From the IMG/VR virus record IMGVR_UViG_3300037191_001144, positions 1-57,863 of that record: a stretch of DNA of 57,863 nt; one strand, written 5' to 3'. The stretch comes from a virus. Its lineage: Duplodnaviria > Caudoviricetes. Below are positions 17,288 through 29,669 of the stretch, piece after piece. Each line of letters starts with the position of its first letter. Within the stretch, counting starts at the first letter, position 1. The translations under genes and the position numbers were made by a program. The notes under the pieces were generated by a model, which saw only the letters and a program-made list of their open reading frames with translations, did no database searches and was not told where the DNA came from.

Positions 17288-18870
17288 GCTCGTGCGTGTG
17301 TTACAATTGCGTTAGTACTTAAGATAGTAGTCGCTACACTCACCGCGTTGCGGAGGGCGTGCTTAGTTACTTTCAATGGATCTATAATCCCCATCTCGTA
17401 CATATCCCCAGCACACTCGTTCTTGACGTCGTACCCCCAGCTATCGTTCTTCGCGTTATGGAGAAGGGACGAAGGCTTGCCCGCGTTCTCTAAGATCTGT
17501 ACCGCAGGAGCCGAGAGAGTATGTTGTAGGATAGCGGTAGCCGCATCCTTATTCTTCCCACTGATAGGTGAATCCCCTAAGGCCATGCCCTCGTTATATA
17601 ACGCGAGGCCCCCACCTGGAAGGATACCCTCCTGAAGGGCCGAGCGCACCGCGCAGACCGCATCGTCCACCCTGTCGAACTTCTCCTTCTGCTCTATGTC
17701 CGAGACTCCCCCAACATATATACACCCTATACCGCCAGCTAAACTCGCTATACGGGAGTTGATAAAGTCACGCTCCCCCTTGTTCTTAGTACTAGACTGC
17801 TGCTCCTTGAGCTGCTCGATCCGAGTAGAGATCTCATCCGTGACCTGGTTGCTCTTGATAAGTACCGCACTCTCCTTCCCCACTATAGCCTTGTCCGCGT
17901 GACCGAGGTCCCCAAGGTTTATAAGGGAGAGATCGTCTCCCGTCTTCTCACTGAAATATTTTGCACCTACCGCAAGGGCGATGTCTTGCATGAGCTCATG
18001 CTGGCGGAACCCAAAACTCGGCGGGGGGACAGCACACAGCTGTAACCCATTACGCGCAACGTTGGCCGCTAAAGTGTTCACTACGTTCCCACTACACGGA
18101 GCAATAAGCAGAAGCTTCAGCCCTCCCTTGATAATAGGCTCGAGCACCGTCTGGATCTGGAGTACGTTGTTAACCTCGTGGTCACACACCAGAACACGCA
18201 CATCCTCTAAGACACACTCATCCTTCTTGTGGTTGTTGATGAAAAGATTGGACGAGTACCCACGGTCCATGCGGATACCCGTCGTGACCTCAGCATACGT
18301 CTTGTCCGTTTGGGAACGCTCGACAGTAACAATACCGTCTGACCCGACCTCGTTATATGCAGAGGCTATAATCTTCCCTAGCTCCTTGTCATTATTGGCA
18401 GAGATAGTAGCAACGTCTAAAAGACGAGACTTAGTAATCTTCTTGGACTTCTTCTCTAGACGAGCAATCACCTGCTCACTAAGGTCCTGGATAAATCGAA
18501 TCACCTCCGTCTTGTTATGATCAGGAGAGATGTACTTCATCCCAGCCTTGACTAACGCCTCCGTTAATACGATCGCCGTAGTAGTCCCGTCCCCCGCTAC
18601 ACTAGCAGTCTTCTCCGAGGCCTGCTTCATCATGCGAACCGCTAAGTTCTCTACCGCGTCGTTGAGGTCTATACTCCGAGCTACAGTGACGCCGTCCTTT
18701 GTGACAGTCATACCCTGTAAATGGTCCGTAGACTCTATAAGAACAGTCTGGCCACGAGGACCTAACGTACTCTTCACTGCCTTGGATAGCGTAGTGATAC
18801 CGTTAATAAGTTTTGTGCGGGCCTCGTCGTCGAAGCACAGTTCCTTTGGGATGTATCCTAACTCACTCAT
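17284..18870 (-). CDS. groEL: Chaperonin GroEL
   Basis: AVKSTLGPRG, VTKDGVTVA, AGDGTTTA, GILPGGG, GIIDPLKV. Confidence 0.97.
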   Translation of the reverse strand: MSELGYIPKELCFDDEARTKLINGITTLSKAVKSTLGPRGQTVLIESTDHLQGMTVTKDGVTVARSIDLNDAVENLAVRMMKQASEKTASVAGDGTTTAIVLTEALVKAGMKYISPDHNKTEVIRFIQDLSEQVIARLEKKSKKITKSRLLDVATISANNDKELGKIIASAYNEVGSDGIVTVERSQTDKTYAEVTTGIRMDRGYSSNLFINNHKKDECVLEDVRVLVCDHEVNNVLQIQTVLEPIIKGGLKLLLIAPCSGNVVNTLAANVARNGLQLCAVPPPSFGFRQHELMQDIALAVGAKYFSEKTGDDLSLINLGDLGHADKAIVGKESAVLIKSNQVTDEISTRIEQLKEQQSSTKNKGERDFINSRIASLAGGIGCIYVGGVSDIEQKEKFDRVDDAVCAVRSALQEGILPGGGLALYNEGMALGDSPISGKNKDAATAILQHTLSAPAVQILENAGKPSSLLHNAKNDSWGYDVKNECAGDMYEMGIIDPLKVTKHALRNAVSVATTILSTNAIVTHARA

Positions 18871-18920: not shown

Positions 18921-19116
18921 ACTATGACAGAATGTCGAAAATAACTCCCCCTATATATATATATATAAAACTATTGTGGAGAGTGTAAAAAAAATCCTAC
19001 AAAAGTGGGAACAAATCGACATTTCGACATAATTTCCCTTAACTATCTTATTACTATATCTTTAGACTAAATAAAATCGACATAAAAACGACATAGAAAT
19101 GACAGTTATCGACATA
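18921..19116. repeat. Iteron-like element copy 1 (CGACAT repeats plus (AT)n tract), putative origin
   Basis: Five CGACAT plus one inverted copy and an (AT)n run; same layout as 30041-30226. Confidence 0.6.
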
Positions 19117-19121
19117 ATAAA

Positions 19122-19409
19122 CTAATATCCAGCCCTTCTTCCCCTTCTTGTTACCCTTAACTTAGTCTTAGTCTTGCCACTTCTTCTTACTTTGTCCTTC
19201 TGTTTGACTAATAAGTTTCCGTTAGAATCAAAAACCTTGAATACATTCTTAGTCTTAGACTTACCACCACGGTCAGTTTGAGAAGACTCGTTAACAGTAG
19301 TCTCCCCAGTAGATGTGTTCGTAACCTTATTAGTTTGGGTAACCTTCTTCCTCTTGCCCTTAATCGTGCTAGAAGAATTAGAGCTTACATCGTAGGACTT
19401 ACCGCTCAT
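19122..19409 (-). CDS. Basic S/T/K-rich hypothetical protein
   Basis: Start reassigned to MSGKS (ATGA overlap with upstream stop). Confidence 0.55.
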   Translation of the reverse strand: MSGKSYDVSSNSSSTIKGKRKKVTQTNKVTNTSTGETTVNESSQTDRGGKSKTKNVFKVFDSNGNLLVKQKDKVRRSGKTKTKLRVTRRGRRAGY

Positions 19410-19537
19410 CCCGAACAAGACTCACAGTCCTCAGGAGACTCAGTGCTACATACAGTCTCCCCAGATAAGATCTTGTCGTCCTGCTCCTTTAACTTCTTCT
19501 GATCTAAGAACAGAGGAGCGTCCAGGTCCTTGATCAT
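19406..19537 (-). CDS. 43-aa peptide ending in a CxxC tail (not in ORF track)
   Basis: MIKDLDAPLFLDQKKLKEQDDKILSGETVCSTESPEDCESCSG; ATGA-coupled on both sides. Confidence 0.65.
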   Translation of the reverse strand: MIKDLDAPLFLDQKKLKEQDDKILSGETVCSTESPEDCESCSG

Positions 19538-19716
19538 AAAGGCTTACGCATCTCAGCTAACTGGATGCCCTCAGCAATGCACTCAACCTTGTACTGGTGC
19601 TTGCGGTTCTTACGGACACGAGCAGCCATAGCAATGCCCGTCTCTCCATCAGGTCTGTTGTTTATGAGGCGACCGTCTTGGACAGTCAAGCCTGGTGTGT
19701 AGTTCTTATGTATCAT
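19534..19716 (-). CDS. Hypothetical protein
   Basis: 60 aa; -7 box TATCTTTG (19721-19728) 4 nt before ATG. Confidence 0.65.
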   Translation of the reverse strand: MIHKNYTPGLTVQDGRLINNRPDGETGIAMAARVRKNRKHQYKVECIAEGIQLAEMRKPL

Positions 19717-20181
19717 GTAGCAAAGATAGTGAAAATTTTTTTACGAGATATCTGGAAGTTGAGGGTTCTAGGTGATGTGACAGGCTGTGTGCCTCATATG
19801 AAAGTCGATGTTGATTCCGATGGGGGTCTTCGGTTTCAGAATTTCTTGTGGATTGTTTCAGGATTCCGCATAGCCTCGCGCCCTCTGTCTATGGTCTCTG
19901 TCTGTGCGCCCTATGTACGCTACGTCTCACGCATCCCCGAGCATTAAGTGCAGTAGTAATGGTATAGGTCTCACGCCCCGTATCCCGCCCCCTGAAGGGG
20001 GTAAACAAGGGAGGAAGGTGTACACAACCTCTCCTTAACACCTCCCCGACCCCTCACCTCACAAAATACTTTCAGGTAAGACATCTCTCTGTATCCCCTA
20101 TCTATGCTCATTCTACGCACATTGAATAAACTATTTTCGAAAGTTTCTTGCACTCATAGCATCAATACCCATTCTGTGAAC

Positions 20182-20189
20182 TATATTTG
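20182..20189 (+). promoter_or_regulatory. Putative early promoter -7 element (TATATTTG)
   Basis: TAnnTTTG immediately upstream of the first + strand early gene; -33 element unclear. Confidence 0.55.
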
Positions 20190-20217
20190 CACAAACGTTA
20201 AACAAATCATATACACC

Positions 20218-20289
20218 ATGCCTATACTACTACTCATCACTACCATCTTCACAATAATCGCATTCATTATTTCATTCATCACAGATTAA
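20218..20289 (+). CDS. 23-aa membrane peptide
   Basis: MPILLLITTIFTIIAFIISFITD after an A/C-rich leader. Confidence 0.4.
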   Translation: MPILLLITTIFTIIAFIISFITD

Positions 20290-20300
20290 TACACAACACA

Positions 20301-20552
20301 ATGACTATAACTGCCCACAACAAGATGCACCAGAGCAATGTCAACAAGGCTACGCAATGGTTAGAGAAGCACAACACATTCAATGCAGAGCGAGACCTAA
20401 TCGAGGATAGCTTAGAAGGTTATCCTGACGAGGATACTGCTTGGAGACGCATCAACAAGAAGTGCGAGGATTCATACGACAAGTACTTGTGCTATATGGA
20501 TGAGCTACCAAAGCGTGAGCAAGACCAAATAACCAAATCAGAATTATACTGA
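20301..20552 (+). CDS. Early hypothetical protein
   Basis: 83 aa, AATACACAACACA-ATG leader. Confidence 0.7.
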   Translation: MTITAHNKMHQSNVNKATQWLEKHNTFNAERDLIEDSLEGYPDEDTAWRRINKKCEDSYDKYLCYMDELPKREQDQITKSELY

Positions 20553-20602
20553 GTAACACTGACGAGTCCTTACTGGACGAAACGTCGAGAGACGTCTGTT
20601 AC
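20553..20602 (+). ncRNA. Type I hammerhead ribozyme HH1 (cleaves after GUC, C20596)
   Basis: GUAACA-CUGACGA-GUCC(UUACU)GGAC-GAAA-CGUC(GAGA)GACG-UC-UGUUAC: full catalytic core and three stems. Confidence 0.93.
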
Positions 20603-20626
20603 ATTTATTCATCAATACACAACACC

Positions 20627-20875
20627 ATGAACAAATCCGAAGAACTAAACTACAAACTGCATCTAGACCGAATTGACGTGTGCTACAAGGTAGACGCAAA
20701 AGGAAGACCATATTACCAAGAACTTTTCCACGAGATGATATCTTGCATTATTGATGCGGAGCTATCAACTACTGAGGAGAACAGAGAGCTAAGGAAAGCG
20801 CTTAAGGTTGCTACTATTCAGATGAAAATTCAAGACCTTGAGAACGAACTTGACACCTTAACAATCACTGAGTAA
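20627..20875 (+). CDS. Early hypothetical protein flanked by HH1 and HH2
   Basis: 82 aa; stop TAA lies inside HH2 stem I. Confidence 0.7.
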   Translation: MNKSEELNYKLHLDRIDVCYKVDAKGRPYYQELFHEMISCIIDAELSTTEENRELRKALKVATIQMKIQDLENELDTLTITE

Positions 20876-20921
20876 CACTGACGAGACTTCAATAGTCGAA
20901 ACGCTGAGAAGCGTCTGTTAC
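20872..20921 (+). ncRNA. Type I hammerhead ribozyme HH2 (cleaves after GUC, C20915)
   Basis: GUAACA-CUGACGA-GACU(UCAAU)AGUC-GAAA-CGCU(GAGA)AGCG-UC-UGUUAC; stems II and III covary with HH1. Confidence 0.93.
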
Positions 20922-20948
20922 AAATTTTATTCACTAATACACAATACA

Positions 20949-21173
20949 ATGAACAATTTTAGAGTAGTAAGAACGAGAATGATTGACATCGATAATGTAC
21001 ACATAGACATACACTTTGGAAGTGATGACAAAATAGTCGCATCAGGTCAGTACAACATCCGTACCAATTGGGCACACGTTACTCGTGAGGAGGAGTATGA
21101 ACGTATGCTTGGCGATGATTGGGAGGACCAGATGCAAGAGGCCATCGAAGAGAGGACGATAGAGATAGGTTAA
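20949..21173 (+). CDS. Early hypothetical protein
   Basis: 74 aa after the conserved leader. Confidence 0.7.
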   Translation: MNNFRVVRTRMIDIDNVHIDIHFGSDDKIVASGQYNIRTNWAHVTREEEYERMLGDDWEDQMQEAIEERTIEIG

Positions 21174-21179
21174 CCAACA

Positions 21180-21226
21180 AGCGGAGTCAGTGCGTGACTC
21201 GAACGGATTCGCTCCCGTTCTCCGCT
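21180..21226 (+). ncRNA. 47-nt three-way-junction, tRNA-elbow-like RNA, copy B1
   Basis: AGCGGA-GUCA(GUGCG)UGAC-UC-GAACGG(AUUCGCUC)CCGUUC-UCCGCU; covaries with B2 and B3. Confidence 0.8.
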
Positions 21227-21255
21227 CTAATTATTATTCACTAATACCCAATACA

Positions 21256-21438
21256 ATGAACGATTTAATTACAATTCAAGGCTTACAAGATGCTCTCAAC
21301 CTTTCAATGAGAGAAGTGAAAGACCTAAGAGATAAGTTAGAGATTACGGAAAAGTATCTCCATAACTATGTTATCCAAGCAGAAAGGACCATAGACACCC
21401 TGATGAAGCCTTATAGCGAGGCAGTACAAACCAAGTAA
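21256..21438 (+). CDS. Early hypothetical coiled-coil protein
   Basis: Start reassigned to ATG 21256 after the conserved leader; stop inside HH3 stem I. Confidence 0.7.
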   Translation: MNDLITIQGLQDALNLSMREVKDLRDKLEITEKYLHNYVIQAERTIDTLMKPYSEAVQTK

Positions 21439-21484
21439 CACTGATGAGACCTGAATGGTCGAAACGTCGTGAGACGTATGTTAC
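21435..21484 (+). ncRNA. Type I hammerhead ribozyme HH3 (cleaves after GUA, A21478)
   Basis: GUAACA-CUGAUGA-GACC(UGAAU)GGUC-GAAA-CGUC(GUGA)GACG-UA-UGUUAC. Confidence 0.93.
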
Positions 21485-21510
21485 AAATTTTATTCACTAA
21501 TCTAATACCT

Positions 21511-21750
21511 ATGACATTACAAGACAAGATTGAACACACAACCGCGATAGCTGATGCTATCCAGCGCAGAGAGGACTACTACACCCTTGAGATTTTAATG
21601 GGTGAAAGCCACCCTTTAGGTTATAGTCCTCAGACATCAGAACTGAGACAAATCGAACTACCTGCACCACAGATTGCAGGTACGATGGTCCAGCGCAGAA
21701 GCTACGCGATGGGCAAAGCTATGGACATCCTTAACACCCTATCACTATGA
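21511..21750 (+). CDS. Early hypothetical protein
   Basis: Start reassigned to MTLQDK after the conserved leader. Confidence 0.65.
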   Translation: MTLQDKIEHTTAIADAIQRREDYYTLEILMGESHPLGYSPQTSELRQIELPAPQIAGTMVQRRSYAMGKAMDILNTLSL

Positions 21751-22022
21751 AAAAACTTTATAGTATACATAGAAAGTGTCACGCCATCTACGAAGAGTTT
21801 GGAGGATACGACTACAACGATAAGATGATTTATCAGCTACGCGGACTCGACGCTGACATCGAAGAGTGTAGCGAGTGTATGGAAGAGTTGTCCAGCCAAA
21901 GAGAAAGAGAGGTACTATACAAAGGGGCTCTTGCTAACGCAGACGCTACTCTCCTATGGTTTGAATGGGTGAAGAAGATGATGGTCCTTAAATCAAAAGA
22001 GCCATCTGCCATCTTTGGTTAG
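21747..22022 (+). CDS. Early hypothetical protein
   Basis: 91 aa, ATGA-coupled. Confidence 0.65.
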   Translation: MKKLYSIHRKCHAIYEEFGGYDYNDKMIYQLRGLDADIEECSECMEELSSQREREVLYKGALANADATLLWFEWVKKMMVLKSKEPSAIFG

Positions 22023-22029
22023 ACCTACA

Positions 22030-22076
22030 AGCGGAGGTAGTGCGTACCTCGAGATGATTCGCCTCGTCTCTCCGCT
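22030..22076 (+). ncRNA. 47-nt three-way-junction RNA, copy B2
   Basis: AGCGGA-GGUA(GUGCG)UACC-UC-GAGAUG(AUUCGCCU)CGUCUC-UCCGCU. Confidence 0.8.
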
Positions 22077-22105
22077 CTAATTATTATTCACTAATCTAAT
22101 ACAAT

Positions 22106-22261
22106 ATGAATTTAGGATACATAGAACACAGAAAGGGCAAGTACTCTGTCCTCGTAGACATTATAGATTTAGGGCCTTTCGGAATGTCGCCTTGCTTCAG
22201 CAAAGGCTTTGACACACGAACAGAGGCAGAAGAACACTCGAACAAATTAAATTTAAAATGA
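22106..22261 (+). CDS. 51-aa early protein (not in ORF track)
   Basis: MNLGYIEHRKGKYSV... directly after the conserved leader. Confidence 0.6.
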   Translation: MNLGYIEHRKGKYSVLVDIIDLGPFGMSPCFSKGFDTRTEAEEHSNKLNLK

Positions 22262-22410
22262 TGACTACACAAGAGAAATTCGAATACACAAGAGGTTTGG
22301 AGAAGCAAATCGAAAAGCAAGAAGCATTAATCGAACACCTTAGAAAGACCATACTTGCTTACTCAGAAAGAATGGAAACTATAACTAAAATCAAAAACCT
22401 ATTAAAATGA
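22258..22410 (+). CDS. 50-aa early protein (not in ORF track)
   Basis: MMTTQEKFEYTRG...; ATGA-coupled on both sides. Confidence 0.55.
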   Translation: MMTTQEKFEYTRGLEKQIEKQEALIEHLRKTILAYSERMETITKIKNLLK

Positions 22411-22646
22411 AATACAAATCAGTATACGCAGTACACCACCTAAGCCATCTACTTGGCGATTGTGAGACCGATCTATTTTTCTCAGAGGCTGACGCGAGAG
22501 CGTTCTTTCTTAAGCTAATGATGGAGGTCGAAGACTCTTCAGACGAGGTTGAGATACTAACCGACGAAGCAGATGAATTGTACTACTGCAATGAGTCTTC
22601 AGGAGAGTACATCAGAATCGTAATAGAACAAATTAAAATCAAATAA
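22407..22646 (+). CDS. Early acidic hypothetical protein
   Basis: 79 aa, ATGA-coupled. Confidence 0.65.
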   Translation: MKYKSVYAVHHLSHLLGDCETDLFFSEADARAFFLKLMMEVEDSSDEVEILTDEADELYYCNESSGEYIRIVIEQIKIK

Positions 22647-22652
22647 AACACA

Positions 22653-22740
22653 TACACGTAATCTGTGGTGGTTCGCAGATGGATTGTTACTCTTTACGCA
22701 TAGAGAATAGCAATGGGGTTCGACTCCCCTACGTGTACCA
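22653..22740 (+). ncRNA. 8/4 tRNA-like RNA C1, ending in CCA
   Basis: Acceptor UACACGUA/UACGUGUA, T arm GGGG(UUCGACU)CCCC, 7-bp D-like arm with GG loop, elongated anticodon-like arm. Confidence 0.7.
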
Positions 22741-22766
22741 ATTAATATTCACTAATACATAATACA

Positions 22767-23054
22767 ATGACAGATAATTTAGGACAATACACGCTCCGCG
22801 AAGTGGAGAAGTTATTTAAGAAGTTAGACCGAATGAATATCGCAGTCCAGAAGAACTACGGGTACGACTTCGAGCACGGAGACAGACCCGCTTTGTGGAT
22901 TTGGACCGAGGGCATTACGGAGGAGACAGAGATGCATATAGACTACTATGCCAATCACGGATGCCCGAGTGAGAAACTTGCTCAGGTCTTATATGACGCT
23001 GAGTCTTATGCTGAGTGGGATAACTCTGCGGTATGTTGTATTTACAAAGTTTAA
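22767..23054 (+). CDS. Early hypothetical protein
   Basis: 95 aa after the conserved leader. Confidence 0.7.
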   Translation: MTDNLGQYTLREVEKLFKKLDRMNIAVQKNYGYDFEHGDRPALWIWTEGITEETEMHIDYYANHGCPSEKLAQVLYDAESYAEWDNSAVCCIYKV

Positions 23055-23059
23055 TCAGT

Positions 23060-23275
23060 ATGGAAGAGAAATTTAGCGACTGCTGTGGAGTCTCCTCTAG
23101 CGAGGAGGATATCCTACGCGATACTTGTCCTGACTGCAAGGAACATTGCGAGTTTAATAACGTAGCACACACGTGCGTCAATTGTGGAGACACAGAAGTA
23201 GAGGTTGAGGGTCAACCTTGCTCAATAGAATGCCACCGAGAGTATTGGGGCGAAATGAACAGAGATGAAAGATAA
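23060..23275 (+). CDS. Small Cys-rich, zinc-finger-like protein
   Basis: SDCC, CPDCKEHC, CVNC, CSIEC; start reassigned to MEEKF. Confidence 0.65.
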   Translation: MEEKFSDCCGVSSSEEDILRDTCPDCKEHCEFNNVAHTCVNCGDTEVEVEGQPCSIECHREYWGEMNRDER

Positions 23276-23483
23276 CAATATGGAATTAATGGACAGAATA
23301 ATAGCCTATGAAGAGGGCAACATCGACGAAGCTGGTATCCTTCAGCTATTTGCGGAGTTAATCAAGTCAGGAATGGCTTGGTCTCTTCAGGGTCACTACG
23401 GCAGAACTGCGAAAGCCTTAATAGACGCAGAATACATAAGTGAGGATGGACAAACCATCTTCTACCAAGACATAGTACAATGA
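23265..23483 (+). CDS. Small phage protein (LIKSGMAWSLQGHYGRTA motif)
   Basis: 72 aa with a distinctive motif seen in many phages (recollection). Confidence 0.7.
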   Translation: MKDNNMELMDRIIAYEEGNIDEAGILQLFAELIKSGMAWSLQGHYGRTAKALIDAEYISEDGQTIFYQDIVQ

Positions 23484-23638
23484 ATCAAAATACAAGATCT
23501 TTCAGGTACTGCATAACGACCCTCGCAATATGGGCAGTAGCATTCTACCTTATCCTTTGCCTAGTCTCTTGCTCGGCAACCAAGTCAGCCAACGTATACG
23601 GCAATCCAAATACTGATAGGTGCGAGGCATATTACTAA
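23480..23638 (+). CDS. 52-aa putative lipoprotein (not in ORF track)
   Basis: Hydrophobic stretch followed by lipobox LVSC; ATGA-coupled. Confidence 0.55.
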   Translation: MNQNTRSFRYCITTLAIWAVAFYLILCLVSCSATKSANVYGNPNTDRCEAYY

Positions 23639-23645
23639 CCCAACA

Positions 23646-23692
23646 AGCAGTGGTAGTGCGTACCGAGAAGAGATTCGCCCCTCTTCACTGCT
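23646..23692 (+). ncRNA. 47-nt three-way-junction RNA, copy B3
   Basis: AGCAGU-GGUA(GUGCG)UACC-GA-GAAGAG(AUUCGCCC)CUCUUC-ACUGCU; compensatory changes in P1 and P3. Confidence 0.8.
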
Positions 23693-23782
23693 CAATTGTT
23701 AATAACTTTGATAATATAATTAGGAATTAGACAAAGTACGAACTATCTTTACACTATCTATAAACATTTAATCTAATACATT

Positions 23783-24007
23783 ATGATACAAGTAACAAGT
23801 AAACTATTCGGTAGCCTTGAGTTACCACTTACCTTAGCTGAGTTTAGCAAAGACCAAGACTCTTGGGGGGCATTGAGTAAGCACATAGTATACCACATAT
23901 ATACTGACGAAGCTATTCGAGTACTACTCTACGCAGTAAAAGATGGCGAGACAGACACAAGCCAAGAGTTAGAGATTATAACCGAAAGAAATATGATATT
24001 CAGATGA
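23783..24007 (+). CDS. Hypothetical protein
   Basis: 74 aa with AATCTAATACATT-ATG leader. Confidence 0.65.
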   Translation: MIQVTSKLFGSLELPLTLAEFSKDQDSWGALSKHIVYHIYTDEAIRVLLYAVKDGETDTSQELEIITERNMIFR

Positions 24008-24138
24008 AGGTTACAATACACACAGACAAGCCTGAGTATGCGGTAGCTAAGAAGGTATGGGATGACATATTCAACAACGACACATTGATATACGACAAGT
24101 TCGACGAGTACTTCTACCACGAATTTTATAAAAACTAA
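24004..24138 (+). CDS. 44-aa hypothetical protein (not in ORF track)
   Basis: MKVTIHTDKPEYAV...; ATGA-coupled. Confidence 0.5.
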   Translation: MKVTIHTDKPEYAVAKKVWDDIFNNDTLIYDKFDEYFYHEFYKN

Positions 24139-24142
24139 TCAG

Positions 24143-24391
24143 ATGAACTACAACAAAAGATACACGATGGAGGAGAACGGGGTCACATACGACTGCGAGG
24201 TAAACGTAAACACCGAAGAAAGCTACGGAAGTTTTGAAATCTACGACGTAGACGATTCAGATGGGTACTACGAGGCGGGTGGCTTATGGTTTGAGGGAAA
24301 CGTACTCAGAGACTACGATGGAGTATACGAACTACCTGAGTGCGTAAAGGCTACGCTCACACAATGGAACTTTAATTTAGAAGAGATATAA
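24143..24391 (+). CDS. Acidic hypothetical protein (GGLWF...DYDGVYELP)
   Basis: 82-aa ORF. Confidence 0.7.
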   Translation: MNYNKRYTMEENGVTYDCEVNVNTEESYGSFEIYDVDDSDGYYEAGGLWFEGNVLRDYDGVYELPECVKATLTQWNFNLEEI

Positions 24392-24396
24392 CAACA

Positions 24397-24506
24397 TACA
24401 CGTAGCATTGTAGGTTTGCAAAAACTTCAGGATACAATGTAGGCGTTCCCTCAATAGGTTTTCTGAATTTCCTATACGGGTGCGAGGTTCGACTCCTCTA
24501 CGTGTA
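24397..24506 (+). ncRNA. 8/4 tRNA-like RNA C2 with enlarged interior
   Basis: Same acceptor as C1 (UACACGUA/UACGUGUA); T arm GAGG(UUCGACU)CCUC; internal stems GCAUUGUA/UACAAUGU and a GCAA tetraloop hairpin. Confidence 0.68.
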
Positions 24507-24529
24507 CTCATTAATTAAACTCAAATAAA

Positions 24530-24817
24530 ATGAAAGACACAAACCAAGTACAAGAAGCCCTTGAAAGCAAGGCAAAGAAAGAACTGCAAAAGATTGTAGA
24601 CGAGTTTACGGAGGCGCTTACCAAACTAGATAGTACATACCGTTCAGCGACGTCGTATGTTATGAAAGAAAGTCGTAGCACAGAAGCCAAAGTGTTTACT
24701 TATGTCACACCTTCTAACTTAGACCATATGCTTCACGAGATGCTCGTAGACGCTTACCTAAAACCTATGGTACACAAAAAAACACAAGAGTTATTAAACA
24801 AACTTGAATTAATATAA
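24530..24817 (+). CDS. Hypothetical protein
   Basis: 95-aa ORF with AT-rich leader. Confidence 0.65.
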   Translation: MKDTNQVQEALESKAKKELQKIVDEFTEALTKLDSTYRSATSYVMKESRSTEAKVFTYVTPSNLDHMLHEMLVDAYLKPMVHKKTQELLNKLELI

Positions 24818-24821
24818 CATC

Positions 24822-25016
24822 ATGAAGAAGAAAGAAGAATTTACTTTTGAAGTCGTCCTCAAGGACGCAATGGAAAACACTAAGTACTACCAAGATCGAT
24901 TGATACAGAACGAAGACGAAAAGATGGAGAGATACTATCAGTCTAAGTATATGGAGGCTCTGTATTATCAGAAAGGATTAGTCGTAGGCCAGAAACTACT
25001 AAGCAAAGAGTCATGA
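24822..25016 (+). CDS. Hypothetical protein
   Basis: 64-aa ORF in operon. Confidence 0.6.
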   Translation: MKKKEEFTFEVVLKDAMENTKYYQDRLIQNEDEKMERYYQSKYMEALYYQKGLVVGQKLLSKES

Positions 25017-25303
25017 ATGATAAAGACAACAAAATAATTGCCCTATTCATGGGGTTGAAACCCCACCATCAGGATGCGGGTTACCTAATAGACGAGAGCA
25101 AAGATGAAGGCTACGAAGCCATACACGAATCGTGTTTCTTATACGACTCGTCATGGGATTGGTTAGTCCCCGTAGTACAGAAGATTGAGGAAGAGTGCGG
25201 GGGTGTACCTAAGCAATTGCTTGACGTCAGTTTCTATGATGAGATAGGAGATGTATACCAAGCAGTAGTAGAATTTATTAAAACATACAACGATGAAAAA
25301 TAA
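25013..25303 (+). CDS. SWDWLxPV-family paralog 1
   Basis: NKIIALFMG...YDSSWDWLVPVVQKI...AVVEFIK. Confidence 0.75.
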   Translation: MNDKDNKIIALFMGLKPHHQDAGYLIDESKDEGYEAIHESCFLYDSSWDWLVPVVQKIEEECGGVPKQLLDVSFYDEIGDVYQAVVEFIKTYNDEK

Positions 25304-25502
25304 TAAACTAATAGGAGACTTTATGGACATCCGAAGTACGGGGTTGTCTGTATATAAAGAGAGCGCATACAAATACCACGAGTCATGGGATTGGTTGATG
25401 CCCGTAGTTGAGAGGATAGGTGATGAGAATCTTTTATCTATTGACATAGACGTAGCATACGATAGAGTAGTAGAATTTATTAAAGAATATAACAATGAAT
25501 AG
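25293..25502 (+). CDS. SWDWLxPV-family paralog 2
   Basis: NKLIGDFM...YHESWDWLMPVVERI...VVEFIK. Confidence 0.75.
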   Translation: MKNNKLIGDFMDIRSTGLSVYKESAYKYHESWDWLMPVVERIGDENLLSIDIDVAYDRVVEFIKEYNNE

Positions 25503-25788
25503 AGAAATATATAACATCATTTTAATACACACCGCACGGACGTGGGAAAGGATACGTATAACACGACCTCATCAGGAGATGCCATTCGATAACATAGGTT
25601 CAGCGGAGCAGATAGAAAACATCGCGTCTACCATATACAACGGCGACATCATACAAGGTTTTCTTAACGCGCCTGATGATCTATCTAAGGATAGATGGTG
25701 GATAGACAAAACAATAGATGGGATGTCCGATGTGTACATAGAGAATGAGGCAGAACGAATTATTAACAACGTATACCTACGACTATGA
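25495..25788 (+). CDS. Hypothetical protein
   Basis: 97 aa, overlapping operon organisation. Confidence 0.6.
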   Translation: MNREIYNIILIHTARTWERIRITRPHQEMPFDNIGSAEQIENIASTIYNGDIIQGFLNAPDDLSKDRWWIDKTIDGMSDVYIENEAERIINNVYLRL

Positions 25789-26009
25789 AAGATAAAATAT
25801 ACATAGACAACTCACGATTCATGGAGTTAATAGATGAGATTGTAACGCAGATAACTGAGGCTGAATTTAAGGAGCAAACAAGTAAGTTAGCTGAAAATGG
25901 AGACTGGGTGTTACAAGGAGAAGCACAAGACTTCTATAACGAGAAGTACAAGGAGTACGAAAACCTATTTAATAACATAGCAAATATACTTAGCGATGCA
26001 AGACAATAA
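25785..26009 (+). CDS. Hypothetical protein
   Basis: 74 aa, ATGA-coupled. Confidence 0.6.
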   Translation: MKDKIYIDNSRFMELIDEIVTQITEAEFKEQTSKLAENGDWVLQGEAQDFYNEKYKEYENLFNNIANILSDARQ

Positions 26010-26096
26010 TTTAAGATACTGCCACGTGTTTACGGCAAAACCTACATCCGTTAACCAGCGAGGTTTGGTGGTGGTATCTTTCAAACCAATAACATC

Positions 26097-26369
26097 ATGA
26101 AAGATAACAAACTAATAGCAGAATTTATGGGAGGCGAAAAACCTGAACGAACATCAGACCTTCGCCACTTTATAGAAGAACATCATAACTACCACGACTC
26201 TTGGGATTGGTTGATGCCCGTAATAGAGAAGATCGAAAATAACGGACTCGATCCACACGGAATGATTGACAACTCTTTAAGGAAGAACAATCAAAAGAGA
26301 TGGCGTTCAATCGAGGACACATATAACGTAGCAGTATACTTAATAAACATATACAACAATGAAAGATAA
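26097..26369 (+). CDS. SWDWLxPV-family paralog 3
   Basis: MKDNKLIAEFMG...YHDSWDWLMPVIEKI. Confidence 0.75.
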   Translation: MKDNKLIAEFMGGEKPERTSDLRHFIEEHHNYHDSWDWLMPVIEKIENNGLDPHGMIDNSLRKNNQKRWRSIEDTYNVAVYLINIYNNER

Positions 26370-26670
26370 CAAACTAATAGCAGAATTTATGGGGTACAAC
26401 TACGACAAGTGTATAGCGTCAACAGACAAGTCTACACCCCTCGATATGCAAGGCGAATACCTTACGCCTGATGGAGACTCGGTATCCGAGAGTGAATTAG
26501 AATTTCACGAGTCGTGGGACTGGCTCATGCCAGTACTTAAAAAGATTAAACTTCAGATACACCCCAACAACATGGGTATGTGGCGAAAGGTAACTCAACC
26601 TATAGGGTACGACATCCACGAGGTACACCAAGAAGCAGTAGAGTTTATCAAAAGATATAGCAATGAGTAG
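26359..26670 (+). CDS. SWDWLxPV-family paralog 4
   Basis: MKDNKLIAEFMG...FHESWDWLMPVLKKI; first 34 nt identical to paralog 3. Confidence 0.75.
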   Translation: MKDNKLIAEFMGYNYDKCIASTDKSTPLDMQGEYLTPDGDSVSESELEFHESWDWLMPVLKKIKLQIHPNNMGMWRKVTQPIGYDIHEVHQEAVEFIKRYSNE

Positions 26671-26778
26671 TAAACGTGTACCAATTTGGTACACAAAGAA
26701 TACATGAGCAGTATAATGAAAACGATTGAGCAGTAAGTGAATGAACTCACCAAATAGCATAACGAAAAGAGAATTAAA

Positions 26779-27522
26779 ATGGAAATTACAAATTTTAAAA
26801 CACACGAAACTAAAAACTATGAGATGTTTGAGTTTCTTGATACAAACAGAGAGCCTAGTCAAAGAATTATTAACAACTTACTTAAAAGCATTAAGCAAAT
26901 CGGTGTGCAAATACCTATAATCGTTAATGAAGATAAATACATTGTCGATGGACAGCATAGGTTTTGGGCTTTAAGGCAACTTGGATATGTAGTGCCATAT
27001 ATTGTAAGCAAAGCTTGGAAAAATGACCAGCATACGATAGCTATAAACAACACTAGTTGTAAGTGGACGGCTATGGATTTCGCAAATTATGCATCTGAAA
27101 ACGGAAATCTTGACGTTCAAGAAGCAATAAAGATTGCTAAAGGTTGGAGAAAAGACTCTAAGAATAGATTAAGTTTAATAAGTGGGTTAGAAATACTAAT
27201 GAAGGGTAGATCACGCAATGGGTTATTATCAAAACTAAAAAACATGACATACAGAATAGACTGTAAGTCGGGGGCGGAAGTTTTTGATACGCTTGTTGTT
27301 ATGAACGAACACCAAATGAAAGCAAGTCCTTTTTCTCAGAAAATAACTAGGTCGATTAAAATATTGCACCACGACAAGGGTGGGTTAAACAATGATGCAA
27401 TTAATCTCATGTGTCAAAAGAACTATATACAAAATTATAGTAAAGAAAATGATCAGTTAGAATATTTTATAGACATATATAACGAGGCTTTAAGTAAGGG
27501 GACACTAGGAGTGAAAGGATAA
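26779..27522 (+). CDS. ParB/Srx N-terminal domain protein
   Basis: SIKQIGVQIPIIV...IVDGQHRFWAL motif. Confidence 0.75.
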   Translation: MEITNFKTHETKNYEMFEFLDTNREPSQRIINNLLKSIKQIGVQIPIIVNEDKYIVDGQHRFWALRQLGYVVPYIVSKAWKNDQHTIAINNTSCKWTAMDFANYASENGNLDVQEAIKIAKGWRKDSKNRLSLISGLEILMKGRSRNGLLSKLKNMTYRIDCKSGAEVFDTLVVMNEHQMKASPFSQKITRSIKILHHDKGGLNNDAINLMCQKNYIQNYSKENDQLEYFIDIYNEALSKGTLGVKG

Positions 27523-27532
27523 ATAAACGACC

Positions 27533-27617
27533 ATAGTAAGGCACGACTTGGAGGATGCTGGGTGTAGCGATTGTTGGTTCAGGAGTTACACACATGGGTT
27601 CGATTCCCACTTACTAT
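27533..27617 (+). ncRNA. 8/4 tRNA-like RNA C3
   Basis: Acceptor AUAGUAAG/CUUACUAU, T arm UGGG(UUCGAUU)CCCA, internal stem GUGUAGC/GUUACAC. Confidence 0.65.
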
Positions 27618-27636
27618 CTAAAAATAAATTAAACAT

Positions 27637-27670
27637 TTTGTCGAAACTTATTAAAGGTTTTGTACCTTTG
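27637..27670 (+). promoter_or_regulatory. Bacteroidota sigma70 promoter (-33 TTTG, -7 TACCTTTG)
   Basis: Both elements present (22-nt spacer) upstream of the recombination operon. Confidence 0.6.
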
Positions 27671-27687
27671 TTTTAAAATTAAATTAA

Positions 27688-27993
27688 ATGAAAAAGAAAA
27701 TATTTATGCAGTACGCAGACGCAGTAGCCGAGCAGTTCCATCTAAGTCTAGATCAAATGTTTGAGAAGTCTAAGCGGAGAGAGTGTGTTGATGCTAGACA
27801 GATGCTATACTACCTATGTATGGAGAGACCTATACGGGTCAGCTACATACAAAGATTTATGGAGGAAGAGGGTCATACTATATGTCACTCAACTATTATC
27901 CATGGGTACAAACGAGCAAAGAAAATTATAGAAAGTGATAAAGACTTCTGTAATGTAGCAAACAATATACAAGAAGGAATATGTACACCTTAG
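27688..27993 (+). CDS. DnaA C-terminal (domain IV)-like HTH protein
   Basis: VAEQF.LS.DQM...SKRRECVDARQMLYYLC...HSTIIHGYKR. Confidence 0.7.
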   Translation: MKKKIFMQYADAVAEQFHLSLDQMFEKSKRRECVDARQMLYYLCMERPIRVSYIQRFMEEEGHTICHSTIIHGYKRAKKIIESDKDFCNVANNIQEGICTP

Positions 27994-28376
27994 AGGATGT
28001 GTTTGAACAAGCAGAAAATGATAACTACTCCACCTCCTTACCTCTACAAAACGGGAAGTCTTACATACGACCCTCTGTTATAATAAAAAAATTCCCCACA
28101 CACATAGACATACTCAACGTCGGAAAGGGGGGAGCATACTACAAGGCTATAACAGAGTCAGAGTTAGAGTACTTCCTCCAGCATGGGTGGGTAAAGGGAT
28201 CGGTTAACGTTAGCCTAAACAACTGCACACACAAGCTACGACTAGTAGAACTTGGGATTAAGAAGGAGGTTAACACTAGGAAGAATGATAAATACATTAA
28301 AGGATTAAAGAATAAGAGAGATAACATACTAAAAAAGTACGCAGTTTTAAAAATTAAATTAAATAAAATTATATGA
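27981..28376 (+). CDS. Hypothetical protein
   Basis: 131-aa ORF in operon. Confidence 0.65.
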   Translation: MYTLEDVFEQAENDNYSTSLPLQNGKSYIRPSVIIKKFPTHIDILNVGKGGAYYKAITESELEYFLQHGWVKGSVNVSLNNCTHKLRLVELGIKKEVNTRKNDKYIKGLKNKRDNILKKYAVLKIKLNKII

Positions 28377-28948
28377 AAGATATTTTCAAGGACTTGTCAT
28401 CCATTAACATCAACGACAAAGTAGAGAAGAAAGGTCAGCACAAGTACCTATCATGGGCACACGCATGGACACTAGCCAAGCAGAAGTTCCCTGAGATTCA
28501 GCGAGTAGTATACGAGTCTGAGCATACGGGACTGAACTACTTTACCGATGGTAACTCAGCCTATGTAAAGGTGGGCATTACGATCGAAGGGTTAGAGCAT
28601 ATAGACTACCTACCCGTAATGGACTTTCGAAACAACGCTCTAGCGTTAGATAAGGTCACGTCTATGGAGGTAAACAAAACTATTCAGAGGTCTACAACGA
28701 AAGCTATTGCTATGCATGGCCTAGGACTAAGCCTATGGAGTGGGGAGGATATAGTACAGACAACCACAGAGGAAGCCCCTAAGAAGGAGGAGAAGATAGA
28801 GCTTATTATTAACACAGATAACTGGGCTAATGTCTTAAAGTATATCGCCTCTAACAAGGAGCTAGGTCTACCTAAAATTATTAAGAACCTAGAGACTAAG
28901 TACAATCTAAAGGCTACTATTAAGAAGGAACTCTCTAAGCATGTTTGA
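28373..28948 (+). CDS. Single-strand annealing protein, DUF1071/Sak3-like
   Basis: EKKGQHKYLSWAHAW...LPVMDFRN...NKTIQRSTTKAIAMHGLGLSLWSGED. Confidence 0.78.
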   Translation: MKDIFKDLSSININDKVEKKGQHKYLSWAHAWTLAKQKFPEIQRVVYESEHTGLNYFTDGNSAYVKVGITIEGLEHIDYLPVMDFRNNALALDKVTSMEVNKTIQRSTTKAIAMHGLGLSLWSGEDIVQTTTEEAPKKEEKIELIINTDNWANVLKYIASNKELGLPKIIKNLETKYNLKATIKKELSKHV

Positions 28949-29669
28949 TGTAGAGAAACTAAAGGACGATGCCCACTACTACGGAGCATACGGGAGGAAG
29001 TACCTCTCCAACTCAGACATAGGCGCACTCCTTACACGACCTACTGAGTATGGAAAACCTAGTGAGCAGACTAAACCTATGCTTATAGGTAGCTACTTAC
29101 ATACCCACATCCTAGAGCCTGATAAGGTAAAGAACTTTGAGGTCATAGACGTAGCTAGTCGTAACACTAAGGTATATAAGGAGGCTCTCGCCAACAGCAC
29201 AGAGAAGATGATCTTACTTAACAACGAGGCAGAGGAGGTTAAGTCCTTAGTAAAAGTTATCAAGGGAAACCTACCTTTCTATGAGGCTATATACAATGAG
29301 TCCAATCAGTTTGAGGTTCCAGCCGTACAGAATATACATGGCGAACTTTGGAAGGGTAAGGCGGACGTAGTGTGTAAGGATATGCTCATAGATTTAAAGA
29401 CTACCTCTAACATGAAAGACTTTAAGTGGTCAGCCAAGAAGTACAACTACGATAGTCAGTGCTATATATACCAGTCCCTATTTGGGAAACCTTTAGTGTT
29501 CTATGTAATAGATAAGGTAAGCCATCAGCTAGGGATCTTCCACGCCTCGCAAGACTTCCTCATGAGGGGGAAGGCTAAGGTAGAGGAGGCGGTAGAGGTA
29601 TACCAAAAGTTTTTCAAGGAGGGTAGCCCAGAAGATATAGAAACATATCTCCACACAGAAATTTTATAG
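28941..29669 (+). CDS. PD-(D/E)XK exonuclease (RecE/ExoVIII, DUF3799-like)
   Basis: LSNSDI...GSYLHTHILEP...KGKAD...IDLKTT...YNYDSQCYIY. Confidence 0.8.
   Translation: MFDVEKLKDDAHYYGAYGRKYLSNSDIGALLTRPTEYGKPSEQTKPMLIGSYLHTHILEPDKVKNFEVIDVASRNTKVYKEALANSTEKMILLNNEAEEVKSLVKVIKGNLPFYEAIYNESNQFEVPAVQNIHGELWKGKADVVCKDMLIDLKTTSNMKDFKWSAKKYNYDSQCYIYQSLFGKPLVFYVIDKVSHQLGIFHASQDFLMRGKAKVEEAVEVYQKFFKEGSPEDIETYLHTEIL

What the first reader, a model, noticed from the sequence alone, without database searches (positions are those of the whole stretch)
20553..27620. RNA-punctuated early region: ribozymes and tRNA mimics at gene boundaries
Seen: nine structured RNAs of three unrelated classes (HH1-3 hammerheads, B1-3 junction RNAs, C1-3 8/4 tRNA-like RNAs). 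Each begins within about 10 nt of a stop codon, and six are followed by the same ~25-nt leader and the next ATG. The order is HH-HH-B-HH-B-C-B-C-C. Established: hammerheads self-cleave, and RNase P, RNase Z and the CCA enzyme measure a 12-bp acceptor+T stack; mitochondria use tRNA punctuation, and T7 uses RNase III sites to split its early mRNA. Inference: interchangeable processing modules cut one early transcript into gene-sized mRNAs with defined ends, either by self-cleavage or by host tRNA-processing enzymes. I do not know of this mixed system being described in a Bacteroidota phage.
Basis: partly seen in the sequence, partly recalled or inferred. Interest (0 to 1): 0.93.

Follow-up and report, generated by a model that had tools for sequence, protein, structure and literature searches.

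The report
Ribozymes and tRNA mimics between phage genes
Between the small early genes of this marine phage sit three hammerhead ribozymes and six tRNA-shaped RNAs, one kind previously undescribed, which most likely cut the long early transcript into shorter messages.

Summary
All nine elements are on the + strand, in the stated order, 0-12 nt after a stop codon. Six are followed by a shared 23-30 nt leader and an ATG.

- **HH1-3:** type I hammerheads with an intact catalytic core. They score below Rfam's cut-off, but 9 of 15 pairs covary across 12 relatives.
- **B1-3:** a 47-nt three-way junction with no Rfam match. 11 of 15 pairs covary in 30 distinct copies from phage and metagenome contigs.
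- **C1-3:** cloverleaf-like RNAs with canonical T-loops that ARAGORN does not call tRNAs.

B and C are not unrelated. Both carry a tRNA-like acceptor plus T-arm stack, and one B variant has a hairpin where an anticodon arm would sit.

In relatives, element type follows the upstream gene, and cassettes recombine at the leader.

Gene-flanking hammerheads in phages were described in 2011. tRNA-like "t-elements" cut by RNase P/Z are known from plant mitochondria. I found no paper on the mixture in a phage, and the B motif is new.

No cleavage evidence could be obtained. C1 is also a stand-alone small-RNA gene in another phage contig, so punctuation may not be its only role.

The parts
20182..20189 (+). 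TATATTTG box, candidate -7 element of a Bacteroidota-type early promoter upstream of the first early ORFs
   Evidence: Pattern TANNTTTG. The same box precedes the first early gene in G003, G005 and G006. The promoter consensus is recalled, not tested.
20553..20602 (+). HH1, type I hammerhead; predicted cleavage between 20596 and 20597 (GUC^U)
   Evidence: Rfam Hammerhead_1 at 31.0 bits (GA 34), E 1.5e-4; pattern match; covariation.
20603..20626 (+). leader before the ATG at 20627
   Evidence: Repeat families D6-D9.
20872..20921 (+). HH2, type I hammerhead; stop codon TAA 20873-20875 lies in stem I; predicted cleavage 20915/20916
   Evidence: Rfam 27.6 bits.
20922..20948 (+). leader with TTCACTAAT box before the ATG at 20949
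21180..21226 (+). B1, 47-nt tRNA-like three-way junction
   Evidence: Pattern; model R1 at 88.2 bits; covariation.
21227..21255 (+). leader with TTCACTAAT box before the ATG at 21256
21435..21484 (+). HH3, type I hammerhead with a GUA cleavage triplet; stop TAA 21436-21438 lies in stem I; predicted cleavage 21478/21479
   Evidence: Pattern; covariation. Not listed by Rfam.
21485..21510 (+). leader with TTCACTAAT box before the ATG at 21511
22030..22076 (+). B2
   Evidence: R1 at 84.8 bits.
22077..22105 (+). leader with TTCACTAAT box before the ATG at 22106
22653..22737 (+). C1, tRNA-like RNA: 8-bp acceptor, 7-bp D-like arm, one long arm, 4-bp T-stem with loop UUCGACU; followed by CCA
   Evidence: Rfam tRNA-Sec at 31.8 bits (GA 47); fold z -4.0; 7 orthologs with 8 of 25 pairs compensatory.
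22738..22766 (+). spacer/leader with TTCACTAAT box before the ATG at 22767
23646..23692 (+). B3, last element of the first unit; followed by TAACTTTG (23703-23710) rather than the leader
   Evidence: R1 at 75.2 bits.
24397..24506 (+). C2, 110-nt tRNA-like RNA: 9-bp acceptor, two inner arms, 4-bp T-stem
   Evidence: orthologs in G002 and G003.
27533..27617 (+). C3, tRNA-like RNA: 8-bp acceptor and 4-bp T-stem. The inner arms are weakly supported.
   Evidence: fold z only -0.3; one ortholog (G002).
27637..27670 (+). TTTG-N22-TACCTTTG promoter-like site after C3, before the replication/recombination genes
   Evidence: 2 matches in the window against 1.43 expected, so not significant by itself.

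Best explanation
The + strand region from about 20.2 to 27.7 kb is the early region of a marine Bacteroidota phage. It is probably transcribed from host-type promoters into a few long RNAs.

Blocks of small ORFs whose stops and starts overlap or nearly abut are separated by compact RNA modules. Each module sits directly after a stop codon and about 25-30 nt before the next ATG.

- **Hammerheads (three modules).** These are type I hammerheads that self-cleave after GUC or GUA. The ribozyme stays on the 3' end of the upstream message. The downstream message starts with a 5'-OH followed by the leader.
- **tRNA mimics (six modules).** Three are copies of a new 47-nt three-way junction (B). It has an acceptor-like stem stacked on a T-like arm for 12 bp in all, a small D-like hairpin and no anticodon arm. 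The other three are larger cloverleaf-like RNAs with canonical T-loops (C).
- **How the mimics are cut.** They are most likely recognised by the host's tRNA-end enzymes: RNase P at the 5' side and RNase Z after the discriminator. Plant mitochondrial t-elements work this way. The transcript would therefore be cut at the same kind of place as by a hammerhead.

Shown: the elements, their structures, their positions and their conservation.

Inferred: transcription as long RNAs, and every cleavage step.

At least C1 probably also acts as a released small RNA.
For: Hammerheads:
- The core CUGAYGA...GAAA...GUH is invariant in 12 of 12 distinct family members.
- 9 of 15 stem pairs show compensatory changes and 99.4% of cells are paired.

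B elements:
- 30 distinct copies, 11 of 15 pairs compensatory, 98.2% paired, and 0 of 500 shuffles reach this.
- RNAalifold finds the same three helices on its own.
- The stack is 7+5 or 6+6 bp, 12 bp either way.
- One copy (L154:2488-2559) carries an extra 5-bp hairpin exactly at the anticodon-arm position.
- The base after the acceptor is C in 30 of 30 copies. It is followed by U in 27 of 30.

C elements:
- C1-3 hold GGTTCGAYTCC. This fits the GGTTCRANYCC word used to find mitochondrial t-elements (PMC1920247).
- In C1, 25 of 25 counted pairs are kept in 7 orthologs and 8 are compensatory.

Position:
- 28 of 30 B copies have an ORF stop 7-20 nt upstream. 27 of 30 have an ATG-ORF 26-90 nt downstream.
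- 12 of 12 hammerheads abut or overlap a stop.

Other support:
- Upstream of gene family f9 sits a hammerhead in 2 genomes and a B element in 3.
- All elements of a contig lie on the gene strand.
- G-U pairs occur in the stems, so the structure is read on the RNA strand.
- None of the 11 terminator-like sites or 20 sigma-70-like sites coincides with an element.
- Precedents: phage hammerheads flanking genes cleave in vitro (PMC3088659). t-elements are cut by RNase P/Z (PMC1920247).
Against: - No transcript end, cleavage product or enzyme assay is available. The two RNA libraries that hold related sequence are assembled contigs at 88-95% likeness and show no ends.
- The hammerheads score below Rfam's gathering cut-off, and HH3 was not reported at all.
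- B's T-like loop (AUUCGCYY, 8 nt) is not a canonical T-loop. No CCA follows B. The loops and the junction CUCG are nearly invariant. That goes beyond what a mere RNase P/Z handle would need and would also fit a ribozyme or a protein site.
- C1 has an invariant acceptor stem and a conserved apical loop (6 of 7 orthologs). In L426 it stands alone with its own terminator-like hairpin. It looks like a gene in its own right.
- C3's inner arms are poorly supported (z -0.3; one G-G mismatch in its only ortholog, by eye).
- All homologs come from one clade of marine phages, so the covariation counts are not independent events.
- The host, and therefore its RNase P/Z, is unknown.
Confidence: 0.5

Rival explanations
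1. B is a new class of small self-cleaving ribozyme. On this reading the B sites, like the hammerheads, cut themselves without host enzymes, and the tRNA-like look of B is coincidental or a scaffold.
For: - B is 47 nt, the size of known small ribozymes.
- About 20 unpaired positions are invariant or nearly so across 30 distinct copies, while the stems covary.
- B occupies the same slot as a hammerhead.
- It has no Rfam match even with lax filters.
- Recalled, not checked here: pistol, hatchet and twister-sister were found as unknown motifs next to hammerhead and twister in phage-like DNA.
Against: - B's plan (a 12-bp stack plus two loops that can pair GCG with CGC) is what a tRNA minihelix with an elbow looks like.
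- One variant gains an anticodon-arm-like hairpin.
- Unmistakable T-loop elements sit in the same slots.
- No candidate cleavage site or catalytic motif could be named.
Confidence: 0.15
2. B and C are not cut. They would act as folded insulators at cistron ends. They could block 3' exonucleases and keep upstream structure away from the unstructured leader that Bacteroidota ribosomes need. Alternatively they bind a phage or host protein that tunes translation or decay.
For: - They sit strictly between a stop codon and the leader.
- The loops are invariant.
- B3 and C3 sit at the ends of units just before promoter-like boxes.
Against: - The partner class in the same slot is a cleaving ribozyme.
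- A canonical T-arm plus acceptor is the known handle of RNase P/Z, and cells cut such structures wherever they are transcribed (PMC1920247).
- No RNA-binding protein was recognised among the proteins scanned: 10, 2 and 10. The small early ORFs were not scanned.
Confidence: 0.15
3. The C elements, and perhaps B, are first of all genes for tRNA-like small RNAs with a function of their own, such as a decoy or ligand for a host tRNA-binding enzyme or defence. They lie in the early operon as tRNA genes do in other phages, and cutting of the mRNA is a by-product.
For: - C1's 8-bp acceptor is invariant in 7 of 7 orthologs. Its apical loop UUUACGCAUA is kept in 6 of 7 while the stem below covaries.
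- ACCA or A+CCA follows the acceptor in 5 of 7.
- In L426 the C1-like RNA stands alone and is followed by a hairpin plus T-run.
- Relatives carry a true tRNA-Arg(TCT) elsewhere on the same strand.
Against: - B was found only between ORFs: 28 of 30 copies have a stop 7-20 nt upstream.
- Element kinds replace one another in the same slot.
- This reading overlaps with the best explanation and is not exclusive of it.
Confidence: 0.15
4. The modules act at the DNA level. On this reading the repeated element-plus-leader units are recombination hot spots that shuffle gene cassettes, like the promoter/stem-loop repeats of T4-type phages, and the RNA folds are incidental.
For: - Contigs of relatives join HH1's 3' end to the leader behind B1 (20603 to 21234) or behind HH3 (20603 to 21511), and join 22253 back to 21171.
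- Gene order is mosaic, and each element travels with its upstream gene.
Against: - Compensatory changes keep RNA pairs, including G-U pairs that would be A-C on the other strand.
- The hammerhead core is intact in 12 of 12 copies.
- Recombination needs only the shared leader, not three kinds of fold.
- Shuffling is better seen as a consequence of the repeats.
Confidence: 0.05

Closest known systems
Clustered hammerhead ribozymes flanking genes in prophages and phages (Perreault et al. 2011, PMC3088659; passages read)
   Same: Several hammerheads sit between single genes or short gene blocks of a phage. The proposed role is cutting long transcripts into gene-length mRNAs. Three such arrays cleaved in vitro in that paper.
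   Different: Here the array is mixed with two kinds of tRNA-like RNA in the same slot, and each module is followed by one shared leader. The supplementary alignments of that paper could not be opened, so I cannot say whether this hammerhead subfamily is already listed there.
t-elements of plant mitochondria (Forner et al. 2007, PMC1920247; passages read)
   Same: These are non-canonical tRNA-like folds inside mRNA precursors. They were found through the GGTTCRANYCC T-arm word, and their borders coincide with mRNA 5' and 3' ends made by RNase P and RNase Z. C1-3 fit that description.
   Different: t-elements belong to an organelle, not a phage, and are not mixed with ribozymes. B lacks the canonical T-loop word and the anticodon arm. 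No ends have been mapped here.
tRNA punctuation of animal mitochondrial transcripts (recalled)
   Same: Genes on one long transcript are separated by tRNA-shaped RNAs that the tRNA-processing enzymes excise.
   Different: There the marks are working tRNAs. Here none of the six is called a tRNA (0 genes) and none has a 7-nt anticodon loop.
Theta (HDV-like) ribozymes next to tRNAs of gut phages (Kienbeck et al. 2024, PMC10879173; abstract in search listing only)
   Same: Small self-cleaving ribozymes and tRNA-type RNAs occur together in phages of Bacteroidota-rich habitats.
   Different: Theta ribozymes lie adjacent to phage tRNAs. Here ribozyme and tRNA mimic are alternatives at separate gene junctions, and no HDV-like match was found.
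RNase III processing of the T7 early transcript; RiboJ-type ribozyme insulators of synthetic biology (both recalled)
   Same: A long early phage RNA is cut between cistrons, and a ribozyme placed upstream of a standard leader gives each gene the same 5' end.
   Different: No long double-stranded RNase III-type hairpins lie at these junctions. RiboJ is engineered.

Membership tests
Hammerhead ribozyme, type I (Rfam RF00163) | Catalytic core CUGANGA ... GAAA ... and a cleavage triplet NUH | tested here: met
   All three copies carry CUGA(C/U)GA, GAAA and GUC (HH1, HH2) or GUA (HH3). Core columns are invariant in 12 of 12 family members.
Hammerhead ribozyme, type I (Rfam RF00163) | Three helices around the core, with stem I open and stems II and III capped, supported by covariation | tested here: met
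   9 of 15 pairs have changes on both sides, 99.4% of cells are paired, and 0 of 500 shuffles reach this.
Hammerhead ribozyme, type I (Rfam RF00163) | Score at or above Rfam's gathering cut-off (34 bits) | tested here: not met
   31.0 and 27.6 bits for HH1 and HH2; HH3 is not listed. The shortfall lies in the loop lengths of stems II and III, not in the core.
Hammerhead ribozyme, type I (Rfam RF00163) | Self-cleavage | not testable with these tools
   Needs in vitro transcription or end-specific RNA-seq.
Transfer RNA | Cloverleaf with a 7-nt anticodon loop, recognised by tRNA finders | tested here: not met
   ARAGORN finds 0 genes in the window. Rfam finds no tRNA at gathering. C1 reaches only 31.8 bits on tRNA-Sec (GA 47). 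No 7-nt anticodon loop is seen in the folds.
t-element (tRNA-like mRNA processing signal) | T-arm word GGTTCRANYCC within a non-canonical cloverleaf closed by an acceptor stem | tested here: met
   Met for C1-3. Not met for B, whose loop is AUUCGCYY. B still has the acceptor plus T-like stack of 12 bp.
t-element (tRNA-like mRNA processing signal) | mRNA ends coincide with the element's borders; cut by RNase P / RNase Z | not testable with these tools
   Only assembled contigs of RNA libraries were available.
Known small self-cleaving classes other than hammerhead (twister, twister-sister, pistol, hatchet, HDV-like, hairpin, as held in Rfam 15) | Match of B to the family's covariance model | tested here: not met
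   No match to B at E up to 10 in a 9-kb stretch, a 1.9-kb stretch and a 1.2-kb stretch.
Intrinsic terminator | G+C-rich hairpin followed by a T-run | tested here: not met
   None of the 11 terminator-like sites in 19000-29000 coincides with an element.

The most novel reading that the evidence does not exclude
B is a new class of small self-cleaving ribozyme built on a tRNA-like three-way junction. If so, this phage lineage would swap two unrelated ribozymes (and tRNA mimics) as equivalent cis-acting cutters at gene borders. Even if B is not catalytic, it would be the first minimal, anticodon-less t-element-type processing signal described outside organelles.
Probability: 0.15. Interest if true: 0.9.

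Novelty: new variant of a known kind. Interest (0 to 1): 0.7.

Why it matters
The biological role of bacterial and phage hammerheads is still open (review PMC6765202). Here a hammerhead and two kinds of tRNA mimic occupy one and the same slot: stop codon, element, standard leader, ATG. That argues the job done there is cutting or end-definition of mRNA. It also gives a compact natural system to test this.

The B motif is a well-supported new structured RNA that is cheap to assay. It is either a minimal RNase P/Z substrate or a new ribozyme.

If host tRNA enzymes are used, this would extend tRNA-type punctuation from organelles to phages of Bacteroidota. These hosts lack Shine-Dalgarno-led initiation (recalled), so freeing an unstructured leader may matter more.

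The modules are also natural 'insulator' parts of the kind that synthetic biologists build.

Tried and rejected
- **Rfam at gathering threshold:** 0 matches in the window. One true tRNA and nothing else in 8 related loci.
- **ARAGORN:** 0 genes in the window.
- **Megablast of 20200-27800 against 50,697 phage records:** no match.
- **First viral-contig scan for B:** it used a wrong spacing, 7 N instead of 6. The pattern matched nothing in the window and its 48 loci were not examined. One scan was wasted.
- **Corrected viral-contig scan for B:** 82 loci. By the closing-stem test plus inspection, 11 true copies lie in 9 loci of 7 contigs.
- **Genome-contig scan for B:** 16 had at least 6 of 7 closing pairs, and none looked like B by eye. 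This is not proof of absence.
- **Sequencing runs:** 2 RNA libraries held about a tenth of the sampled words. Laid as contigs they are relatives at 88-95% likeness and give no information on starts, ends or transcription. Parts without cover mean nothing.
- **Loop II pseudoknot idea:** I considered that loop II of the hammerheads pairs with the leader (UGAAU with AUUCA in HH3). I dropped it by eye because the other copies do not keep the complementarity.
- **The leader as a promoter for a phage RNA polymerase:** considered and judged unlikely. The same leader follows the host-type -7 box before the first early gene in G003 and G006, so it lies inside a 5' UTR.
- **The 3707-aa protein:** no PDB match and one PHROG family of unknown function.

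Full report
**What the window is.** The window is a whole IMG/VR virus record of 57,863 bases, estimated 94% complete. Structural genes lie on the - strand: P22-like portal, large terminase and a 1592-aa virion protein. From about 20.2 to 36.2 kb a block of + strand genes runs the other way. It begins with many small ORFs. It continues with ParB-like, Sak-like annealing, exonuclease, primase, helicase and repair-exonuclease genes. A CHU_C type IX secretion domain and a BT4734-like primase domain point to a Bacteroidota host. The runs that hold the DNA are marine.

**Checking the observation.** Standard annotation sees nothing: Rfam at gathering scores gives 0 matches and ARAGORN gives 0 tRNAs. 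The elements are nevertheless there.
- A pattern for the hammerhead core plus stem I hits 3 times against 0.00 expected. The B pattern also hits 3 times against 0.00 expected.
- The T-loop word hits 3 times against 1.2 expected and is not significant alone.
- In E-value mode Rfam lists HH1 (31.0 bits) and HH2 (27.6 bits) under Hammerhead_1 (cut-off 34), and C1 under tRNA-Sec (31.8 bits, cut-off 47). HH3, B1-3, C2 and C3 get nothing meaningful.
- Where no element is present, neighbouring ORFs mostly overlap by a few bases or are at most 6 nt apart. The elements therefore delimit blocks of apparently coupled ORFs.

**Hammerheads.**
- All three have the full core and a GUC or GUA cleavage triplet.
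- The stop codon of the upstream ORF abuts stem I or lies inside it.
- In 12 distinct members of this subfamily from the window, related phage contigs and metagenome contigs, the core columns never vary. 9 of 15 stem pairs show compensatory changes and 99.4% of cells are paired. No slid or shuffled control comes close.
- I accept them as hammerheads despite the sub-threshold Rfam scores.
- They are type I, so cleavage would leave almost the whole ribozyme on the upstream RNA and a 5'-OH six bases before the leader.

**The B motif.**
- B is a 47-nt three-way junction. It has a closing stem, a 3-bp hairpin with loop AG(U/C)GCG(Y), a junction CUCG and a 5-bp hairpin with loop AUUCGCYY.
- A corrected scan of viral contigs found 11 true copies in 7 contigs among 82 pattern hits.
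- A covariance model then found 2, 5, 1, 1, 1, 2 and 1 copies in records G001-G007.
- A metagenome scan added 22 B-like copies in 15 loci. This count excludes two G+C-rich hits of 55 and 67 nt that passed the stem test but are not B.
- Over 30 distinct sequences, 11 of 15 pairs have changes on both sides and 98.2% of cells pair. 0 of 500 shuffles reach this.
- RNAalifold, run on the plain MAFFT alignment, predicts the same three helices. It differs only in whether an invariant G pairs into the closing stem or into a hairpin. The coaxial stack is 7+5 or 6+6 bp, 12 bp either way.
- No Rfam family matches B, even in short stretches where the filters are lax.
- No true copy was seen among the 120 genome-contig hits listed.

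**B and C are both tRNA-like.**
- C1-3 have an 8- or 9-bp acceptor stem that runs straight into a 4-bp stem capped by a canonical T-loop.
- B has the same acceptor-into-T-arm continuity.
- One B copy in G006 carries an extra 5-bp hairpin exactly between the D-like hairpin and the T-like arm, which turns it into a cloverleaf.
- Relatives hold further intermediates in the same kind of place. One is a 54-nt three-way junction with a canonical T-arm (L273). Another is a 47-nt acceptor/T minihelix in G001 (L164). There is also a 116-121-nt class with acceptor TAGCAGT (L229, L246, L257).
- The system therefore has two kinds of part, a ribozyme and a graded series of tRNA mimics, rather than three unrelated classes.

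**Comparative anatomy.**
- Seven related records carry the same kinds of element on the gene strand.
- A gene-order map built from all-against-all BLASTP of called ORFs shows which element follows which gene family. B follows f23 in G000, G002 and G003. B follows f38 in G002 and G006. A hammerhead follows f31 in G003 and G005. B follows f3 in G000, G005 and G006 but not in G003.
- As a result the slot upstream of f9 holds a hammerhead in G000 and G005 and a B in G002, G003 and G006.
- G002 has five B copies and no hammerhead. G004 duplicates G003 and was not counted separately.
- The element therefore travels with the upstream gene, and the shared leader is the likely crossover point.
- Contigs from other samples join HH1's end directly to the leader behind B1 or behind HH3.
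- Over all copies, 28 of 30 B elements have an ORF stop 7-20 nt upstream and 27 of 30 have an ATG-ORF 26-90 nt downstream. 12 of 12 hammerheads touch a stop codon.
- More distant relatives were found through the exonuclease gene (33-54% identity, 29 loci). They carry type III and type I hammerheads, again below Rfam cut-offs, in their early regions. Several are preceded by a palindromic hairpin. These relatives also carry other tRNA-like elements that ARAGORN does not call.

**C1 is more than a mark.**
- A scan for its T-arm plus acceptor found it in five more viral contigs.
- Seven orthologs keep 25 of 25 counted pairs, 8 of them by compensatory change. The 8-bp acceptor never varies.
- The apical loop UUUACGCAUA is kept in 6 of 7. 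ACCA or A+CCA follows in 5 of 7.
- In L426 the RNA stands alone, followed by a hairpin and a T-run.
- C1 is thus a family of phage tRNA-like small RNAs that, in this lineage, sits inside the early operon.

**Transcription.**
- No sigma-70-like or terminator-like site coincides with an element.
- Boxes fitting the Bacteroidota -7 consensus TAnnTTTG (recalled, not tested) lie at 20182, at 23703 just after B3, and at 27663 just after C3.
- The same box precedes the first early gene in G003, G005 and G006, where it is followed by the same leader.
- I therefore read the leader as a 5' UTR and translation start region, not as a promoter. I read the region as two or three long units.

**Mechanism.**
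- The best reading is that hammerheads cut by themselves and the tRNA mimics are cut by host RNase P and/or RNase Z.
- The near-constant C then U after B's acceptor (30 of 30 and 27 of 30) fits what I recall of RNase Z preferring a U after the discriminator and being blocked by CCA. That is recall, not a test.
- Plant mitochondrial t-elements are the closest worked example. Gene-flanking phage hammerheads are the other half.
- None of the cleavages is shown here.
- The main rivals are these: B is itself a new ribozyme; B and C are uncut insulators or protein sites; the tRNA mimics are chiefly small-RNA genes. A purely DNA-level role is unlikely because RNA pairs, including G-U pairs, are conserved.

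**Novelty.** Seven literature searches found no description of hammerheads mixed with tRNA-like elements at phage gene junctions. Subscription journals and supplementary files were not searchable. The finding is a new variant of known kinds of system, and it contains one clearly new RNA motif.

Noticed in passing
window 26010-26096 (+): A conserved structured intergenic element lies between two small genes. Its long closing stem differs from the G002 copy by compensatory changes, and in G002 it is followed by a T-run. It may be an attenuator or terminator. A 34-aa ORF (25996-26100) covers it and may not be a gene.
   Followed up: partly
window 26674-26686 (+): A 13-nt copy (ACGTGTACCAATT) of the 3' end of C1 plus its CCA sits inside a hairpin GTGTACCAATTTGGTACAC in the 108-nt gap before the ParB-like gene. 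It may be a relic of a lost C element.
   Followed up: no
window 17284-18870 (-): The phage encodes a GroEL/Cpn60-type chaperonin (Pfam Cpn60_TCP1, E 6e-55).
   Followed up: no
window 36675-47798 (-): A 3707-aa ORF has no Pfam-type annotation. It has one PHROG family of unknown function and no PDB sequence match. Its size recalls virion-packaged giant proteins of N4-like and crAss-like phages. This was not tested.
   Followed up: partly
window 12469-16190 (-): Two proteins carry a CHU_C type IX secretion signal and DUF285/BspA-type leucine-rich repeats. These are host-like surface-protein features in a phage.
   Followed up: no
window 25013-26670 (+): Tandem paralogous small genes (family f1, four copies in the window) show as direct repeats D1, D3 and D5. 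Relatives carry two to five copies.
   Followed up: no
L156, L159, L160 (distant relatives), e.g. L159:3550-3604: Type III hammerheads in early regions are each preceded by a near-perfect palindromic hairpin (GTGTCTTCGAAGACAC-like) that follows the upstream stop codon.
   Followed up: partly
L226, L229, L246, L273, L188, L208 (metagenome contigs): In these relatives a 6-8-bp hairpin with a 3-4-nt loop (for example GAGTTCAC-CGA-GTGAACTC) takes the place of the TTCACTAAT box between a B or hammerhead and the next ATG. It could be a 5' stabiliser or a promoter hairpin.
   Followed up: no
L145, L146, L148, L154 (G002, G003, G005, G006): A true tRNA-Arg(TCT) follows gene family f14 in four relatives. 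The window has none at that place.
   Followed up: partly
L229, L246, L257: A further class of 116-121-nt tRNA-like RNAs has acceptor TAGCAGT/ACTGCTA and T-loop UUCGAUU. In L246 two copies lie about 40 nt apart.
   Followed up: no
window 20219-20289 (+): A 23-codon, strongly hydrophobic ORF (MPILLLITTIFTIIAFIISFITD) lies between the promoter-like box and the first leader. G005 has a similar one.
   Followed up: no
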